Numbered from the stretch's first letter, positions 30,480 to 38,430 are shown. The stretch is DNA of 64,000 bases from an uncultured Candidatus Binatia bacterium (GCA_965214605.1 OZ243961.1:64001-128000); one strand, 5' to 3'. Notes: a model not told the origin generated them from the letters alone. Numbers and translations are program-made.

Positions 30480-32402
30480 GTGGGAGCTCAAGACGTACAG
30501 CACGACAACGATGCCGCCCAACGCCGCAGCTTCATCTCGCACTTGCTGCGTGATGTCCGTGCGCTGGAACACATGCTTGGCGAGGGGATGATCGAGTCCG
30601 ACGTTCACCGAATCGGGGCGGAGCAAGAACTCTTTTTGGTGGACAGCACCCGGCGTCCGGCGCCGCTTGCGCTCGAAATTCTGGAGCGGATCAAGGACCC
30701 GCACTACACTACAGAGTTGGGGCTCTTTAACCTCGAGATTAATCTTGATCCCTTGGCCTTTCGGACCGACTGCCTGCGTCAACTCGATCGCCAGCTCAAC
30801 ACCTTGCTGGCCAAAGTCAGAGCCGTCGCCCAGCAGTCTGGGGCCGAGCTTGTGCTGACCGGGATTTTGCCGACGCTGCGGAAGTCTGACCTCGCGCTGA
30901 GCAATATGACCCCTAAGCCACGCTATCGGGAGCTGAATACGGCCCTCGGCCAACTCCGTGGAGGCGATTACGAATTTCAACTCAAAGGGGTGGATGAACT
31001 GAACGTCAAACATGACTCGGTCATGCTAGAAGCGGGCTGCACCAGTTTCCAAGTCCATTACCAAGTCGGGCCGGCAGAGTTTGCCCAGTGTTATAACATT
31101 GCCCAAGCCATCACCGCCCCACTCCTGGCCGTGGCCACCAACTCGCCGCTCCTGTTTGGACGTCGGCTGTGGCAGGAAACGCGGATTCCGCTGTTTCAGC
31201 AGGCGGTTGATACGCGTAGCGCGTGTCATTATATGCGTGAGCGTGCCCCTCGGGTCAGCTTTGGGCAGCAGTGGGTGCACCGCTCTATATTGGAACTGAT
31301 CCAGGAAGATTTGGCCCGTTTTCGAGTCCTGCTAGGGACGTCGTTACAAGAGGATTCCTGGAGCGTGCTCGGGCAGGGCGGACTGCCCGGCTTACAGGCC
31401 CTGCGTATCCATACCGGAACAGTCTATCGCTGGAATAGGGGCTGCTTTGGCATTGGTGGGGGCAAGGCCCATATCCGGATTGAGAACCGCGTCCTTCCGG
31501 CCGGCCCAACGGTTGTTGACGAAGTGGCCAATGCGGCCTTCTTCCTCGGTTTACTCCGTGGCGGGCAGGACAGCTATGGGGATATCACCAAAAAAATGCC
31601 CTTCCACCATGCTGAGGCCAACTTTCTGGCTGCGGCTCAGATGGGGCTCGACGCCCAGTTTACCTGGCTCAACGGGAAAAGTATGCTCGCCCGCGAGCTG
31701 ATCGCCCGGGACTTACTCCCGCTGGCTCAGCACGGACTACGCACGGCAGGCCTGGACAGTGCGGACATTGATCATTACCTCGGCGTGATAGAGCAACGGG
31801 TGGCCTTGAACAGAACAGGCGCGTCTTGGTTGCTCCGCTCTTTGGCCGATATGCGGGGGACCGACACCCAGGAGGCACGGCTGAGCGCGCTCACCGCGGC
31901 TATCGTCCATCGCCAATGGGAGGGAGTACCCGTACATGAATGGCCGCCCGCCGAGCTAGAAGAAGGCCGTGGCGCACGGCTGCAAGCCTTACGCATTGAA
32001 GAATTTATGACCACCGATCTGTTTACCGTCCATCCCGATGAGCCGCTCGACCTGGTAGCCAATCTGATGGACTGGCAACGGATTCGTCACATCCCGGTTG
32101 AGGATGAGCAGGGTGAGCTGGTCGGCCTAATCTCGTGCTTTGAGGTCCTGCGTCACGGGCTGTCTCAGACCGACCGCGACCCGCTGCCGGTCAGCGCAGT
32201 GATGCAGCACAACCCGATTACGCTTCCTCCGGAAACCCTGGTCCTGGACGCGGTTGCCCGGATGCGGCAAGAAAACAGTGATTATTTGCTCGTGGTCAAA
32301 CACGAGCGTTTGGTTGGTATTGTAACAGAGCGTGATATTCTTAATATGACGGCCCGGCTGCTTGAACAGTCCGGCCAGGAGTCGGCCGCGCATGACGCAT
32401 AA
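30480..32402 (+). CDS. Glutamate-cysteine ligase family 2 (GCS2) carboxylate-amine ligase fused to a C-terminal CBS pair
   Basis: IGAEQELFLVD, TELGLFNLEIN, SFQVH, NSPLLFG, RIENR; CBS motifs FMTTDLFTV...RHIPV and LVGIVTERD. Confidence 0.88.
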   Translation: MGAQDVQHDNDAAQRRSFISHLLRDVRALEHMLGEGMIESDVHRIGAEQELFLVDSTRRPAPLALEILERIKDPHYTTELGLFNLEINLDPLAFRTDCLRQLDRQLNTLLAKVRAVAQQSGAELVLTGILPTLRKSDLALSNMTPKPRYRELNTALGQLRGGDYEFQLKGVDELNVKHDSVMLEAGCTSFQVHYQVGPAEFAQCYNIAQAITAPLLAVATNSPLLFGRRLWQETRIPLFQQAVDTRSACHYMRERAPRVSFGQQWVHRSILELIQEDLARFRVLLGTSLQEDSWSVLGQGGLPGLQALRIHTGTVYRWNRGCFGIGGGKAHIRIENRVLPAGPTVVDEVANAAFFLGLLRGGQDSYGDITKKMPFHHAEANFLAAAQMGLDAQFTWLNGKSMLARELIARDLLPLAQHGLRTAGLDSADIDHYLGVIEQRVALNRTGASWLLRSLADMRGTDTQEARLSALTAAIVHRQWEGVPVHEWPPAELEEGRGARLQALRIEEFMTTDLFTVHPDEPLDLVANLMDWQRIRHIPVEDEQGELVGLISCFEVLRHGLSQTDRDPLPVSAVMQHNPITLPPETLVLDAVARMRQENSDYLLVVKHERLVGIVTERDILNMTARLLEQSGQESAAHDA

Positions 32403-35020: not shown

Positions 35021-35205
35021 AGATGTGTCCTCCTTCGCGTATGCGCCGGGTGTGCCACTCCTAGAAAAAAATGAGGTAGAACGTATACTACTCATACTAA
35101 AGGGGAGAGCGTGTCAAAAGTCAATCTGGACGATTTCAGAAAATGCCAGGAGCGCGCTGGGTGACACGCAGTCCGCCCGACCGGCGCAAGACTAAGGAGG
35201 TTGGT

Positions 35206-35613
35206 ATGAAAGCTGTCAGGGAGATAATGAACACCGAGGTGACGACCCTGGGGCGCAACGATACGCTCCAACTCGCTCAGGACATCATGAACCTGGGCCG
35301 CGTGCGTCATTTTCCGGTCCTTGAGGATGGCGAGGTGGTGGGAGTGATGAGCCAGCGCGACTTGTATAAGGCTTCGCTGGGGTCGGTGATGAAGTATGGC
35401 GAGAAGGCCCAACGGGAGTTCCTCGACACCATCGCCGTCAAAGAAGTCATGAAATATCCCCCCATTACGATTGCTCCACAGACATCGGTCCAGGAAGCCG
35501 CCCGGCTGATGCTGAAGGAGAGGGTTGGCTGTCTGCCGGTCCTCGACAACAACGAGCTCGTCGGTATCGTGACCGAGACCGATATGCTTCAGCTGGTGAC
35601 GGAGATGGACTAG
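35206..35613 (+). CDS. CBS domain protein (paralog of 33599-34048)
   Basis: VREIM, VRHFPV, SQRDL, GCLPV, LVGIVTETD; AAGGAGG RBS. Confidence 0.93.
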   Translation: MKAVREIMNTEVTTLGRNDTLQLAQDIMNLGRVRHFPVLEDGEVVGVMSQRDLYKASLGSVMKYGEKAQREFLDTIAVKEVMKYPPITIAPQTSVQEAARLMLKERVGCLPVLDNNELVGIVTETDMLQLVTEMD

Positions 35614-35647: not shown

Positions 35648-35995
35648 ATGGACGAAAAAGATCGATTAGGCCAATTCTTGGACAAAAAAGAGCGCGCCGA
35701 GGAAAATCGGTTTTTCGCCGAGCGCGACCGGGAGCTGATCGAACAGCTCAGGCAAAAAAAGGCCGACGAAGAGGAGCAGCTCTTTCGCGAACTCGTCCAC
35801 CTACGTTGCCCGCGGTGTGGGGCACGACTTGGTCAGCGGGAGATCCATGAGATCACGATTGATGAGTGTCCGGAATGTCAGGGGCTCTGGCTTGATAAGG
35901 GCGAACTGGAAGCGCTCTCCAAACATCGGGGCGGTGAGTGGATCGCACAATTCATGGAGCGCCTCACCCACCTCTTGTCCCGTCCGGACAAATAG
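35648..35995 (+). CDS. zf-TFIIB Zn-ribbon protein with an IF1-like N-terminal helix
   Basis: CPRCG...IDECPECQGLWLDKGEL; N-terminus KKERAEENRFFAERDRELIEQLR. Confidence 0.85.
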   Translation: MDEKDRLGQFLDKKERAEENRFFAERDRELIEQLRQKKADEEEQLFRELVHLRCPRCGARLGQREIHEITIDECPECQGLWLDKGELEALSKHRGGEWIAQFMERLTHLLSRPDK

Positions 35996-36129
35996 CGCGC
36001 CGGGGGAATGGAACGCTGTTGCGGCTGAACAGACCGTTAGCACGCTCCATTGAGGAGTAGCGCTGCCGTCTCGACATTGGGATACTGAACTGAGTTCGCC
36101 GGACTCTGTTTTGTCGGAGGAGTGAGAGC

Positions 36130-38430
36130 TTGCGTCTGCTATGGACCCTGCTTGCCGGTGTACTCATCGGCTCATTCGTCGCCCTGCTGTACTACGGACG
36201 CGAAGTCTATCAGATGGCGCCGCCGGTGCCTGAGCGGGTTGTGATTGCCGGCTCAGACCGCGGGGCGCTTTTCACCGGTGATGACATTCGGGCTGGCCAG
36301 GACGTTTGGCGCTCGATTGGGGGCCATAATCTGGGATCAATCTGGGGCCATGGCGCCTATGCCGCACCGGACTGGACCGCGGACTGGCTGCATCGGGAGG
36401 CGGTCTGGCTACTGGACTATTGGGCCCGCCAGGAAGGCGAGGGCAGCTATGACACCCTCGGACCCGAGCGTCAGGCCGCGCTGCGGGTGCGCCTCCAGGC
36501 GGAGCTGCGTACAAACACCTATGACCCACGCACCCAAACGCTGACCGTATCGGCCCTCCGGGCTCAGGCCATTGACGCCGTTCAGGCGCACTACCTCGGT
36601 CTGTTCAGGACCGATCCCCAGTATGACAGCTTACGTGAGAGCTACGCCATGCCAGCCGGGACGGTGGCTAGCGACGAACTCGCTTCCCAGCTCACCGTCT
36701 TCTTTTTTTGGGCGACCTGGGCGTGTGTGACCGAGCGCCCTAACCACGACATCACCTATACCCACAACTGGCCACCAGAAGCCCTGGTTGGGAATGTTCC
36801 GACCGGCACCCTCCTTGTGGTGTCGGTCGCCAGTTTTGTGCTCCTCCTAGGAGGGATTGGCGCCTTGGCCTGGTTTTATGCCGCCAGGCGTGATTTCTGG
36901 CGCAACGCCCACGAACGACCGCCCACCGATCCACTGCTCAATCTTGAGTTGACGCCTTCAATGCGGGCAACCCACAAATACTTCTGGGTTGTTGGGACGC
37001 TGTTGTTGGCTCAGATGATAACCGGCGTCGTTACCGCCCACTATGGAGTAGAAGGCACGGCGCTGTACGGTATTCCTCTTGCCGAGTGGCTGCCGTACTC
37101 TCTGGCCCGCACCTGGCACGTCCAGCTCGGTATTTTTTGGATCGCGACGGCCTGGCTGGCGACCGGTCTGTGTCTCGCCCCCAGCATAGCTGGACGCGAG
37201 CCGCGCTTTCAACGGCTAGGGGTCAACGGTCTTTTTGTCGCCCTGGCGATTGTGGTTGCCGGCTCGATGGTCGGCCAAGCCCTGGCCATCCACCATCAGC
37301 TCGAAGGTGGGACAAACTTCTGGTTTGGCCATCAGGGCTATGAGTATGTCGAGCTCGGACGTTTCTGGCAGGTGTTGCTTGCGCTGGGCCTGTTTTTGTG
37401 GGTCGGGCTGATGCTCCGTGCGCTGTGGCCAGCCCTCCAGACCGCCCACGGGGCAAACAAGCAGCTGCTCAGCATCTTTATCCTCGCGGCGGGCGCTATC
37501 GCGCTGTTCTACACCGCTGGCCTAATGTGGGGACGGCATACCAACCTGGCGCTTGCCGAGTATTGGCGCTGGTGGGTCGTTCACCTGTGGGTAGAAGGAT
37601 TCTTTGAGGTCTTTGCAGTAACAGTCATCGCGTTTATGTTTACCCGCCTGGGGCTCGTCCGGGTTCGCGCGGCGACCATGGCCGTGCTGTTCACCACCAT
37701 TCTGTATCTCGTTGGTGGTATCCTGGGCATGTTCCACCACCTCTACTTTACCGGCACCACCCCGATCATTCTGGTCTTGGGTGGAACGTTTAGTGCCCTG
37801 GAACTGATGCCGCTGGTGTTGATCGGCTTTGAAGCCTATGAGAACTGGTCGATGGCGCGTTTGGCCCCGTGGGTGCGCAACTACAAGTGGCCTATTTACT
37901 GGTTTGTGGCGGTGGCGTTCTGGAATTTAGTCGGAGCCGGGCTGTTTGGCTTTTTGATCAATCCGCCCATTGCTCTATACTATATGCAAGGGCTTAACAC
38001 CACACCGGTCCACGGCCACGCCGCCCTGTTTGGGGTGTATGGCATGCTGGGAATCGGCCTGTGCCTCCTCAGTCTACGGATTCTCAGCCTGCGGCAGGAG
38101 TGGAAGACCACGGCCCTTAGCTTTGCCTTCTGGGCCATGAACCTTGGGATGGGACTCCAGATCCTGCTCAGCCTCTTACCGGTCGGACTTGCCCAGACGT
38201 GGGCTAGCGTAGAGCACGGGATGTGGTATGCCCGTTCGGCGGAGTTCTTGCAAACTCCGCCTCTGGAAATGTTCCGTTGGCTTCGGGTGGTCGGTGACAC
38301 GCTGCTGGCACTCGGGATACTGGCCTTTGGCTGGTTTCACCTTGGTCTGACGACCGGCTGGTCTATCACCGGCCTGCGACGTGATATTGGTGACTATGCA
38401 GTAAGCGTATCACAAGAAAGGAATGAGTGA
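36130..38430 (+). CDS. norB: Quinol-dependent nitric oxide reductase (qNOR)
   Basis: GSIWGHGAY.APDWTADWLH, GYEYVELGR, WWVVHLWVEGFFE, FHHLYF, HGHAALFGVYG; 766-aa single subunit. Confidence 0.95.
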   Translation: MRLLWTLLAGVLIGSFVALLYYGREVYQMAPPVPERVVIAGSDRGALFTGDDIRAGQDVWRSIGGHNLGSIWGHGAYAAPDWTADWLHREAVWLLDYWARQEGEGSYDTLGPERQAALRVRLQAELRTNTYDPRTQTLTVSALRAQAIDAVQAHYLGLFRTDPQYDSLRESYAMPAGTVASDELASQLTVFFFWATWACVTERPNHDITYTHNWPPEALVGNVPTGTLLVVSVASFVLLLGGIGALAWFYAARRDFWRNAHERPPTDPLLNLELTPSMRATHKYFWVVGTLLLAQMITGVVTAHYGVEGTALYGIPLAEWLPYSLARTWHVQLGIFWIATAWLATGLCLAPSIAGREPRFQRLGVNGLFVALAIVVAGSMVGQALAIHHQLEGGTNFWFGHQGYEYVELGRFWQVLLALGLFLWVGLMLRALWPALQTAHGANKQLLSIFILAAGAIALFYTAGLMWGRHTNLALAEYWRWWVVHLWVEGFFEVFAVTVIAFMFTRLGLVRVRAATMAVLFTTILYLVGGILGMFHHLYFTGTTPIILVLGGTFSALELMPLVLIGFEAYENWSMARLAPWVRNYKWPIYWFVAVAFWNLVGAGLFGFLINPPIALYYMQGLNTTPVHGHAALFGVYGMLGIGLCLLSLRILSLRQEWKTTALSFAFWAMNLGMGLQILLSLLPVGLAQTWASVEHGMWYARSAEFLQTPPLEMFRWLRVVGDTLLALGILAFGWFHLGLTTGWSITGLRRDIGDYAVSVSQERNE

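What the first reader, a model, noticed from the sequence alone, without database searches (positions are those of the whole stretch)
35648..35995. Zn-ribbon protein with an N-terminus resembling the mitochondrial ATPase inhibitor IF1
Seen: LGQFLDKKERAEENRFFAERDRELIEQLRQK followed by a CxxC...CxxC ribbon. Known (recalled from memory): the IF1 inhibitory helix reads roughly [28 protein letters not shown], and the alphaproteobacterial zeta subunit uses FDDRERAHEAKF. Inference: a bacterial IF1-like F1Fo inhibitor, possibly gated by an NO- or redox-sensitive Zn-thiolate. Its position directly upstream of qNOR among CBS and USP genes fits a role in blocking ATP hydrolysis when respiration fails.
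Basis: partly seen in the sequence, partly recalled or inferred. Interest (0 to 1): 0.75.

Follow-up and report, generated by a model that had tools for sequence, protein, structure and literature searches.

The report
Bacterial zinc-ribbon protein with IF1-like helix
A small bacterial stress-island protein carries, in front of a zinc ribbon, a highly conserved helix that specifically resembles the part of mitochondrial IF1 that jams ATP synthase, so it may be an unrecognised bacterial brake on ATP hydrolysis, though binding has not been tested.

Summary
The ORF is real: window 35648-35995 (+), 115 aa, 93 homologues. It has a 50-residue N-terminal helix, a PF13453 zinc ribbon (E 3.5e-14) and two short C-terminal helices.

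The IF1 resemblance survives testing. A profile of 81 family members finds bovine IF1 as the best non-ribbon match in the PDB (E 1e-4, ungapped, on the inhibitory helix). Pig, yeast and plant IF1s follow, and no other coiled coils appear. In reverse, Pfam IATP hits only this ORF in the whole genome, but at 21 bits it stays below Pfam's cut-off of 25. Its five best hits in 151 related genomes are all this family.

Seven of the eight IF1 residues that supply binding energy have identical or conservative counterparts, including an invariant Glu at the E30 position.

Against the reading:
- No zeta-subunit similarity was found.
- No atp genes lie nearby in any locus examined.
- A homologous sister subfamily lacks the first half of the motif and does not hit IF1.
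- The qNOR/CBS/USP setting is not conserved; close relatives sit beside clpB and riboflavin synthase.
- 18 of 81 members lack a four-Cys site.

The F1 docking job never ran.

Verdict: an IF1-like F1 inhibitor is the best single reading (about 0.4), and it is unproven.

The parts
35648..35995 (+). Whole gene, 115 aa plus stop
   Evidence: ORF list; 93 homologues; Pfam PF13453
35634..35640 (+). GAGGAGG ribosome-binding-like run, 7 nt before the ATG
   Evidence: Read directly from the sequence
35669..35755 (+). IF1-like segment, residues 8-36. It is the best-conserved helical stretch of the protein, conserved on every face of the helix.
   Evidence: Ungapped profile alignment to IF1 residues 19-47; column counts; mean 3.15 bits per column, conservation moment 0.05, hydrophobic moment 0.43
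35756..35800 (+). Amphipathic helical linker, residues 37-51, less conserved
   Evidence: AF2 helix 3-51; mean 1.98 bits, hydrophobic moment 1.56
35804..35917 (+). Zinc ribbon, residues 53-90 (C54, C57, C74, C77; GxWLDxGE motif)
   Evidence: PF13453 E 3.5e-14; 8yoz_A (ZifS) E 9e-13 with the family profile; Foldseek top hit 8yoz
35897..35980 (+). Two C-terminal helices, residues 84-94 and 96-111, the last one amphipathic
   Evidence: AF2 model; hydrophobic moment 1.87 for residues 96-111
35143..35613 (+). Upstream CBS-pair gene, 35 nt away on the same strand; probably co-transcribed
   Evidence: Pfam CBS E 7.6e-31. One contig from an RNA library of a roughly 92%-identical relative spans this gene, the ORF and the start of norB. 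This is a weak hint only.
36130..38430 (+). Downstream quinol-type nitric oxide reductase (NorB with fused cytochrome c-like domain)
   Evidence: PF22085 E 1.5e-66 and PF00115 E 7.6e-52
36092..36106 (+). Weak terminator-like hairpin with a T-rich tail, between the ORF and norB
   Evidence: 1 found against 1.1 expected in shuffles, so not significant

Best explanation
The gene encodes a small cytoplasmic regulator made of two modules. Residues 8-36 form a charged, non-amphipathic helix conserved on all sides. I read it as a bacterial counterpart of the inhibitory helix of mitochondrial IF1. When respiration fails and ATP synthase starts to run backwards, this helix would insert into a catalytic alpha/beta interface of F1. 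The invariant Glu19 would pair with the conserved Arg of the beta C-terminal domain, and Tyr/Phe22 and Phe23 would sit in the adjoining hydrophobic pocket, locking the rotor against ATP hydrolysis. The amphipathic linker, the zinc ribbon and the C-terminal helices would stay outside F1. They would serve as an oligomerisation or masking module, the role played by the coiled coil in IF1. Shown: the gene, its domains, its family, the specific sequence likeness to IF1, and the pattern of conservation. Inferred: binding to F1, inhibition, the role of the ribbon, and the timing under stress.
For: 1. A family profile (81 sequences) against 177,635 distinct PDB sequences gives the ZifS ribbon first. 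Next come bovine IF1 (E 1e-4) and 12 further IF1-type sequences: mammalian, a second 'IF1' entry at E 0.006, plant At2g27730 at 0.0088 and 0.061, and yeast at 0.054. All align to query 8-52, and no other coiled-coil protein ranks among them.
2. In reverse, Pfam IATP run over all six frames of the 4.37-Mb genome hits only this ORF (21.2 bits, E 0.0012). In 151 genomes of the phylum, the five best IATP hits (E 1.9e-4 to 9.9e-3) all lie on family members found independently. The 8 hits elsewhere all have E 0.028-0.089.
3. Mapping by the ungapped alignment (query n = IF1 n+11) onto the mutagenesis of Bason et al. 2011 (PMC3041923, section 8 read) covers the binding-energy residues F22, A28, E30, Y33, F34, Q41, L42 and L45. 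Seven of the eight are matched: L11 (72/81 Leu), A17 (72/81), E19 (81/81), Y/F22 (81/81), F23 (80/81), I/L/V31 (81/81) and L34 (76/81). Only Q41 is not matched (L30). Four of the eight 'pathway' residues are also matched: K14, R26, R28 and E29.
4. Residues 8-36 are the best-conserved helical stretch (3.15 bits per column against 1.98 and 1.76 for the other long helices). Conservation runs all round the helix and the hydrophobic moment is low. This is what is expected of a helix that becomes enclosed by a partner, and not of a bundle or coiled-coil helix.
5. AF2 models residues 3-51 as one uninterrupted helix with its highest confidence at residues 11-40.
6. The setting is an energy/NO-stress island: three CBS-containing genes, two USP genes and qNOR. 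One relative is a natural fusion to a tandem USP (P0158). Close relatives lie divergent from clpB.
7. The genome has a single F-type atp operon with the conserved beta 'RARKIQRF' helix.
Against: 1. The match is short and stays below Pfam's own cut-off: 15.6 to 23.7 bits against 25.
2. A sister subfamily is clearly homologous (hhalign probability 99.9, E 6e-31, ungapped over the motif). Its helix starts at a Pro-Ser cap just before the Glu, so it has no counterparts of IF1 F22, R25 and A28. Its profile finds no IF1 in the PDB at E<=10. If both subfamilies do the same job, half of the 'IF1 motif' is dispensable.
3. No atp gene lies near the gene. In one search, 0 of 25 loci and the 20 kb of window around the ORF had one. 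Among 96 neighbour ORFs of 26 sister-subfamily loci, no ATP-synthase family was reported.
4. Residues invariant here have no IF1 counterpart: A24 (IF1 R35), D27 (IF1 A38), K4 and D5.
5. The genome's epsilon subunit has a full-length C-terminal domain. That domain is the usual bacterial inhibitor (recalled knowledge).
6. There is no zeta-like signal.
7. The qNOR/CBS/USP neighbourhood is not conserved in relatives.
Confidence: 0.4

Rival explanations
1. It is a ZifS-like small zinc-ribbon stress protein whose N-terminal helix grips some other partner, not F1. The partner could be a universal stress protein, ClpB or another nucleotide-binding protein. The likeness to IF1 would be convergence or remote ancestry without shared function.
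For: One relative is fused to a tandem USP (P0158). USP genes flank the gene here and in L009. clpB lies divergent from the gene in 5 of 7 close relatives. The sister subfamily lacks half of the IF1 motif. No atp genes are linked.
Against: The USP fusion was seen once among the proteins looked at. The neighbours vary widely: P-type ATPase in 3 of 26 loci, M48 peptidase in 2 of 26, and GreA-like genes in 1. No single alternative partner is therefore indicated. This reading also does not explain why the conserved positions coincide with the F1-contacting residues of IF1.
Confidence: 0.35
2. It is a transcription- or nucleic-acid-associated zinc-ribbon factor, as the Pfam name 'transcription factor zinc-finger' suggests, with the helix acting as a dimerising or RNA-polymerase-contacting element.
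For: The lower Foldseek matches for the ribbon are RNA polymerase subunit Rpb9-type and MutM ribbons. In L108 two family genes each precede a GreA/GreB-like gene.
Against: Those structural matches are weak (E 0.2 or worse) and cover about 34 residues, as for any zinc ribbon. The conserved helix is zwitterionic, not basic. The GreA pairing was seen in 1 of 26 loci.
Confidence: 0.1
3. The N-terminal helix is only a structural coiled coil that dimerises the protein, and the IF1 likeness is a chance product of charged helical composition.
For: It is a long single helix. IF1 itself is largely a charged helix. The scores are below Pfam's threshold.
Against: No other coiled-coil proteins appear beside IF1 in the PDB search. 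The segment has a low hydrophobic moment (0.43), and basic residues sit where a heptad core would be. Conservation is all round the helix, not on one face. The reverse search is specific genome-wide.
Confidence: 0.1

Closest known systems
Mitochondrial ATPase inhibitor IF1 (bovine ATP5IF1, yeast Inh1; Pfam IATP PF04568)
   Same: Both have an N-terminal helix with the pattern K-[KR]-E-x-A-E-E-x-R-[YF]-F-x-x-R-x-[KR]-E-x-[LI]-x-x-L, in the same register as the IF1 minimal inhibitory region. The acidic residue at E30 is invariant, and the aromatic pair at Y33/F34 is all but invariant: Y/F22 in 81/81, F23 in 80/81. Both are small proteins encoded away from the atp operon.
   Different: It is bacterial. 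It scores below Pfam's cut-off. It has no presequence. A zinc ribbon stands where IF1 has its His-rich antiparallel coiled coil. IF1 R35, Q41, A43 and A44 have no counterparts. A review (PMC9317440; passages read) states that IF1 is absent from prokaryotes.
Zeta subunit of alphaproteobacterial F1Fo (Paracoccus denitrificans; DUF1476, PF07345)
   Same: It is the precedent for a bacterial, non-operon protein whose N-terminus mimics IF1 and blocks F1 (abstract of PMC10469736 in the listing; passages of PMC9317440).
   Different: No profile similarity: PF07345 finds nothing in this genome at E<=10. Zeta has a helical-bundle body, not a zinc ribbon (recalled). According to the review, zeta is confined to alphaproteobacteria.
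ZifS (TTHA0897) of Thermus thermophilus, PDB 8yoz
   Same: The zinc ribbon is the same, with the CPxC...CxxCxGxWLDxGELE motif: E 9e-13 with the family profile, and it is the Foldseek top hit.
   Different: In ZifS the ribbon starts at residue 5 of 82, so there is no N-terminal helix. No paper on its function was found.
AtpTheta of cyanobacteria and the C-terminal domain of bacterial epsilon
   Same: Both are other small bacterial brakes on ATP hydrolysis under low-energy conditions (bioRxiv 10.1101/2021.07.30.454416, abstract in the listing; review passage).
   Different: No sequence relation was tested or seen. According to the review passage, AtpTheta acts on Fo. Epsilon is an operon-encoded subunit and is present in full length here.

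Membership tests
Pfam PF13453 Zn_ribbon_TFIIB | Score above the curated cut-off (22 bits) | tested here: met
   52.3 bits, E 3.5e-14, residues 53-90; 81 of 81 aligned members hit it
Pfam PF13453 Zn_ribbon_TFIIB | Four metal ligands in two knuckles | tested here: met
   C54, C57, C74 and C77 are present in the window protein. Across the family: C54 81/81, C57 69/81 (Asp in 12), C74 80/81, C77 75/81.
IF1 / Pfam IATP PF04568 | Score above the curated cut-off (25 bits) | tested here: not met
   15.6 bits for the protein; 21.2 bits in the six-frame genome search. Best E-value among 81 members is 1.1e-4. No match was over the cut-off in any of 151 genomes.
IF1 / Pfam IATP PF04568 | Inhibitory helix with the residues that supply binding energy (F22, A28, E30, Y33, F34, Q41, L42, L45 of bovine IF1) | tested here: met
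   7 of 8 are matched by identical or conservative residues in an ungapped alignment. Q41 is not matched.
IF1 / Pfam IATP PF04568 | C-terminal antiparallel coiled coil with a His-rich pH switch | tested here: not met
   Residues 53-111 are a zinc ribbon plus two short helices. That this feature defines IF1 is partly recalled; E26-H49 is mentioned.
IF1 / Pfam IATP PF04568 | Binds a catalytic alpha/beta interface of F1 and inhibits ATP hydrolysis | not testable with these tools
   The complex job was prepared (alpha 96-502, beta 83-469 and the whole protein, each with an alignment), but it never ran before the cap closed.
Zeta subunit, Pfam PF07345 (DUF1476) | Profile match | tested here: not met
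   No match at E<=10 anywhere in the genome; PF07345 is not among the families listed for the protein or its 81 relatives.
ZifS-like small zinc-finger proteins (8yoz) | Same ribbon fold and motif | tested here: met
   E 4.6e-8 with the single sequence and 9e-13 with the profile; Foldseek E 9.5e-4, probability 1.00
ZifS-like small zinc-finger proteins (8yoz) | Same overall architecture | tested here: not met
   The ZifS ribbon begins at residue 5. Here 52 residues of helix precede it.

The most novel reading that the evidence does not exclude
This family would be a true prokaryotic relative of mitochondrial IF1. On that reading, the IF1 inhibitory helix was not invented in eukaryotes, as current reviews hold. 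It would exist in free-living bacteria (genomes labelled Deltaproteobacteria and Binatia, and this one) fused to a zinc ribbon. There it would act as a stress-deployed brake on F1Fo ATP hydrolysis outside the alphaproteobacteria, with the zinc ribbon as a new kind of regulatory handle.
Probability: 0.2. Interest if true: 0.85.

Novelty: new variant of a known kind. Interest (0 to 1): 0.65.

Why it matters
Three kinds of protein brakes on reverse-running ATP synthase are commonly discussed. These are epsilon in most bacteria, zeta in alphaproteobacteria only, and IF1 in mitochondria only. The review read here (PMC9317440, passages) builds an evolutionary argument on 'the absence of IF1 in procaryotes'. 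A widespread bacterial family that carries the IF1 inhibitory motif would reopen the question of where IF1 came from. It would also add a fourth bacterial regulator and give a directly testable candidate: a 115-residue soluble protein with obvious point mutants. If the likeness turns out to be convergent or unrelated, the family is still a conserved, uncharacterised small zinc-ribbon protein. It was found in 53 of 151 sampled genomes of this phylum, and no paper on its function was found in the searches run here.

Tried and rejected
- Complex prediction with the cognate F1 (alpha 96-502, beta 83-469, the whole protein, each with an alignment). The cap then closed without a job having run. It says nothing either way.
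- ESM Atlas look-up of residues 1-50: not available.
- NCBIfam: nothing better than E 0.05.
- TAL-effector rows in the single-sequence PDB search (E 2.3e-4 and weaker) come from summed repeats of a weak match to residues 77-110. No single stretch passes, and they vanish with the family profile. Rejected as a repeat artefact.
- Search for other architectures carrying the N-terminal helix. Residues 1-48 against proteins of 63-202 aa gave 15 proteins among 16 candidates. All were the same family, or truncated frames of it (P0084, P0088). Against proteins of 30-62 aa there were no candidates. The word index limits both searches.
- FNR/DNR-type palindrome TTGAT-N4-ATCAA with up to 2 mismatches: none between 32300 and 38426. 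The nearest is at 38427.
- Promoter/terminator scan: five promoter-like sites on the + strand against 0.4 expected, but with no clear assignment; one terminator-like site against 1.1 expected.
- RNA evidence: four metatranscriptome runs hold about 5% of the sampled words. The two that were laid carry contigs of a roughly 92%-identical relative. Contigs cannot show a transcript, its ends or its level.
- Earlier findings of this scan: nothing near the place or like the sequence.
- Literature: no paper for 8YOZ, PF13453, ZifS/TTHA0897, PF04568, 'IATP domain' or 'prokaryotic IF1' in the sense meant here.
- Supplementary Table S4 of Bason et al. was not seen.
- L032 (an archaeal MAG) and L082 looked like full-length matches. 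They are double-ribbon proteins without the helix.

Full report
THE OBSERVATION. A GAGGAGG run ends 7 nt before the start codon. The quoted string is residues 7-37, and the two CxxC pairs are C54/C57 and C74/C77. The frame is the coding one. Residues 53-90 match Pfam PF13453 (Zn_ribbon_TFIIB) at 52.3 bits against a cut-off of 22. A word-indexed search found 93 homologues at E<=1e-3 among 106 candidates, most of them 100-117 residues and full-length. A word-free search of 1.84 billion cluster representatives found 6346 proteins at E<=0.001, mostly through the ribbon. NCBIfam has no model for it.

ANATOMY. AlphaFold2 was run on an alignment of 81 sequences (A1). A1 holds the window protein plus 80 of the 93 hits. 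I dropped the partial P0016 and P0044 and the weak or differently built P0083-P0093. The model has mean pLDDT 74 and shows:
- one uninterrupted helix, residues 3-51, with its highest confidence at residues 11-40;
- the ribbon hairpins;
- two C-terminal helices, residues 84-94 and 96-111.

The family consensus of the N-terminus is MDEKDRLGxKLxxKERAEEDRYFAERDRELIxKLK. E19 and A24 are invariant, and K4, D5, F23, R26, D27, L30 and L34 are nearly so.

Residues 8-36 are the best-conserved helical stretch. They carry 3.15 bits per column, against 1.98 for the linker 37-51 and 1.76 for the last helix. Their conservation runs all round the helix (conservation moment 0.05) and their hydrophobic moment is low (0.43). 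The linker and the last helix are ordinary amphipathic helices, with moments of 1.56 and 1.87. That pattern fits a helix that ends up enclosed by a partner. It does not fit a helix that packs by one face.

IS THE IF1 LIKENESS REAL? With the single sequence it is only a hint: Pfam IATP E 0.022 at 15.6 bits against a cut-off of 25, and bovine IF1 E 0.34. With the family it becomes specific in both directions.
- Forward search. The A1 profile was run against 177,635 distinct PDB sequences. It finds the ZifS ribbon first (8yoz, E 9e-13) and then bovine IF1 at E 1e-4, in an ungapped alignment of query 8-51 with IF1 19-62. Further IF1-type sequences follow: further mammalian entries, another entry named IF1 (E 0.006), plant At2g27730 (0.0088 and 0.061), yeast (0.054), a fungal entry named mS47/IF1 (0.11) and an entry named 'Inhibitor of F1 (IF1)' (0.8). 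The only other rows in that range are zinc fingers and two stray helices. The many coiled-coil proteins of the PDB do not appear.
- Member count. 67 of 81 members hit IATP at E<=1, with the best at 1.1e-4.
- Reverse search. IATP run over all six frames of the 4.37-Mb genome hits only this ORF (21.2 bits, E 0.0012). In 151 genomes of the same phylum, 15 have an IATP hit at E<=0.1. The five best (E 1.9e-4 to 9.9e-3) and two weaker ones lie exactly on family members located independently with A1. The other eight lie elsewhere and all have E 0.028-0.089, about what chance predicts for 151 searches.

The likeness is therefore more than composition. It nonetheless stays under Pfam's own threshold everywhere.

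WHICH RESIDUES MATCH. I read section 8 of Bason et al. 2011 (PMC3041923). I did not see its Supplementary Table S4. With query n = IF1 n+11, the residues that supply binding energy in the bovine complex map as follows:

| Bovine IF1 | This family | Count in A1 |
|---|---|---|
| F22 | L11 | 72/81 Leu, all hydrophobic |
| A28 | A17 | 72/81 |
| E30 (salt bridge to beta R408) | E19 | 81/81 |
| Y33 | Y/F22 | 81/81 |
| F34 | F23 | 80/81 |
| Q41 | L30 | not matched |
| L42 | I/L/V31 | 81/81 |
| L45 | L34 | 76/81 |

Of the eight residues needed on the binding pathway, four are matched: R25/K14, R37/R26, K39/R28 and E40/E29. The cognate beta subunit keeps the 'RARKIQRF' helix that holds R408 in the bovine enzyme. 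That helix is invariant in all 30 beta subunits aligned, so it does not discriminate.

Residues that are invariant here but unexplained by IF1 are A24 (IF1 R35), D27 (IF1 A38), and K4 and D5.

WHAT SPEAKS AGAINST. A sister subfamily has the consensus MxxKPSExEEEYFARxEFE...LHYMxCPKCG (26 sequences, alignment A4). It is clearly homologous: hhalign probability 99.9, E 6e-31, ungapped over the motif. The Glu and the second aromatic (E19/E9 and F23/F13) are invariant in both subfamilies, and [YF]22 and A24 align with Tyr and Ala in the sister consensus. However, the sister helix begins at a Pro-Ser cap, so nothing corresponds to IF1 F22, R25 or A28. Its profile finds no IF1 in the PDB at E<=10. If both subfamilies share one function, only E-x-x-[YF]-F-A and the helix after it are essential.

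Gene neighbourhood gives no link to ATP synthase.
- In 25 loci and the 20 kb of window around the ORF, tblastn with the genome's own atpA, atpG, atpD and atpC found nothing. Two of those loci, L032 and L082, later proved to be double-ribbon proteins without the helix.
- Among 96 neighbour ORFs of the 26 A4 loci, no ATP-synthase family was reported.

IF1 and zeta are also not encoded in atp operons, so this is weak evidence. The genome's epsilon subunit has a full-length C-terminal domain.

SURROUNDINGS. In the window the gene sits in a run of stress-type genes:
- a GCS2 ligase fused to a CBS pair (30480-32399);
- an AstE/AspA-type gene;
- a CBS pair;
- a tandem USP on the other strand;
- a second CBS pair, 35 nt upstream of the ORF;
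- the ORF itself;
- quinol-type NorB, 135 nt downstream;
- a single USP;
- two aldo-keto reductases.

One 989-nt contig from an RNA library of a roughly 92%-identical relative covers the CBS gene, the whole ORF and the start of norB. In it, the 110-nt spacer is replaced by 6 nt. That fits one transcription unit but does not show it.

The arrangement is not conserved. I examined seven close relatives with the IF1-like N-terminus: L005, L006, L007, L116, L117, L118 and L119.
- Five have clpB upstream.
- Four have riboflavin synthase immediately downstream, 10-75 nt away.
- One has a CBS gene and a nitroreductase.
- None has qNOR.

The genome itself holds, at that ancestral-looking place (PGPGW membrane protein, X, riboflavin synthase), a second copy reduced to the first 40 residues, with a glutathione-transferase-like gene in the way. 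One relative (P0158, 410 aa) is a natural fusion of the whole module to a tandem USP. The common theme is therefore stress or energy limitation, not NO in particular.

THE ZINC SITE. The ribbon is that of ZifS (TTHA0897) of Thermus thermophilus, PDB 8yoz. I found no paper on it, and it lacks the N-terminal helix. In the family, 12 of 81 members have Asp for the second Cys, and 6 of 81 lack the fourth Cys. The members I looked at (P0080, P0094) have a His one position on. The metal site is probably kept, but a thiolate switch that senses NO or oxidants cannot be a general property. Nothing here tests it.

MOST LIKELY MECHANISM. I commit, at about 0.4, to an IF1-like brake. The conserved helix 8-36 would insert into a catalytic alpha/beta interface of F1 during ATP hydrolysis. 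Glu19 would pair with the beta Arg, and the aromatic pair would sit on the beta C-terminal helices. The linker, ribbon and last helices would stay outside as an oligomerising or masking module.
- Shown: the gene, its family, its domains, the reciprocal and specific motif likeness, the residue-by-residue coincidence with IF1's binding residues, the all-round conservation, and the stress setting.
- Inferred: every step involving F1.

The main rival (0.35) is the same protein gripping another partner, with the IF1 likeness convergent or inherited without the function. Smaller rivals are a transcription-type ribbon factor (0.1) and a mere dimerising coiled coil with a chance likeness (0.1).

The decisive computation was a multimer prediction with the cognate F1. 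I prepared it with alignments of alpha (A3) and beta (A2), but the tool never ran it.

NOVELTY. [quoted passage not shown] My searches found no paper on a prokaryotic IF1-like protein, on PF13453 or on ZifS. The family is widespread: 53 of 151 sampled genomes of this phylum have a match. Relatives also occur in genomes labelled Deltaproteobacteria, Binatia, Gemmatimonadota and Acidobacteriota. As it stands, this is a new variant of a known kind (protein inhibitors of F1) resting on sequence evidence only. If binding is shown, it would reopen the question of the origin of IF1.

Noticed in passing
Own genome outside the window: G000:C1:3976218-3976331 (-), which is locus L115 6108-6332 (-): A second copy is reduced to the first ~40 residues of the IF1-like helix (E 1.4e-8 to the family profile, positions 1-40). 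It lies between a PGPGW-type membrane protein and a glutathione-transferase-like gene followed by riboflavin synthase. In relatives, the full-length gene occupies this place. It is either a remnant or a helix-only peptide.
   Followed up: partly
Protein P0158 (410 aa, from the representative search): A natural fusion of the whole helix-plus-ribbon module to a tandem universal stress protein (Usp E 1.2e-59). It was seen once among the proteins inspected.
   Followed up: partly
Proteins P0094, P0105, P0107, P0144, P0240: Tandem duplications of the whole unit (helix plus ribbon, twice) in proteins of 186-222 residues. Many other PF13453 proteins carry 4-6 ribbons.
   Followed up: no
Locus L108 (G141:C26), 562-2668: Two family genes in a row, each followed by a GreA/GreB C-terminal-domain gene. 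A third family hit lies nearby in the same contig.
   Followed up: no
Loci L098, L100, L106: In 3 of 26 sister-subfamily loci, a P-type cation ATPase (E1-E2 ATPase with Cation_ATPase_N) lies right next to the gene. An M48 peptidase lies next to it in L095 and L100.
   Followed up: no
Window 30480-32399 (+): A 640-aa protein joins a GCS2-type carboxylate-amine ligase to a C-terminal CBS pair. With it, three CBS-containing genes lie within 5 kb.
   Followed up: no
Whole window: TTGAT-N4-ATCAA-like palindromes with up to 2 mismatches occur 26 times, against 12.8 expected (0 of 100 shuffles reach 26). None is next to the ORF.
   Followed up: no
Window 36002-36113: In an RNA-library contig from a roughly 92%-identical relative, the 110-nt spacer between the ORF and norB is replaced by 6 nt. 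In that organism the two genes almost abut.
   Followed up: no
Control genomes: Pfam IATP 'rings' at E<=0.1 in Thermus thermophilus, the organism of ZifS. Which gene is hit could not be seen.
   Followed up: no
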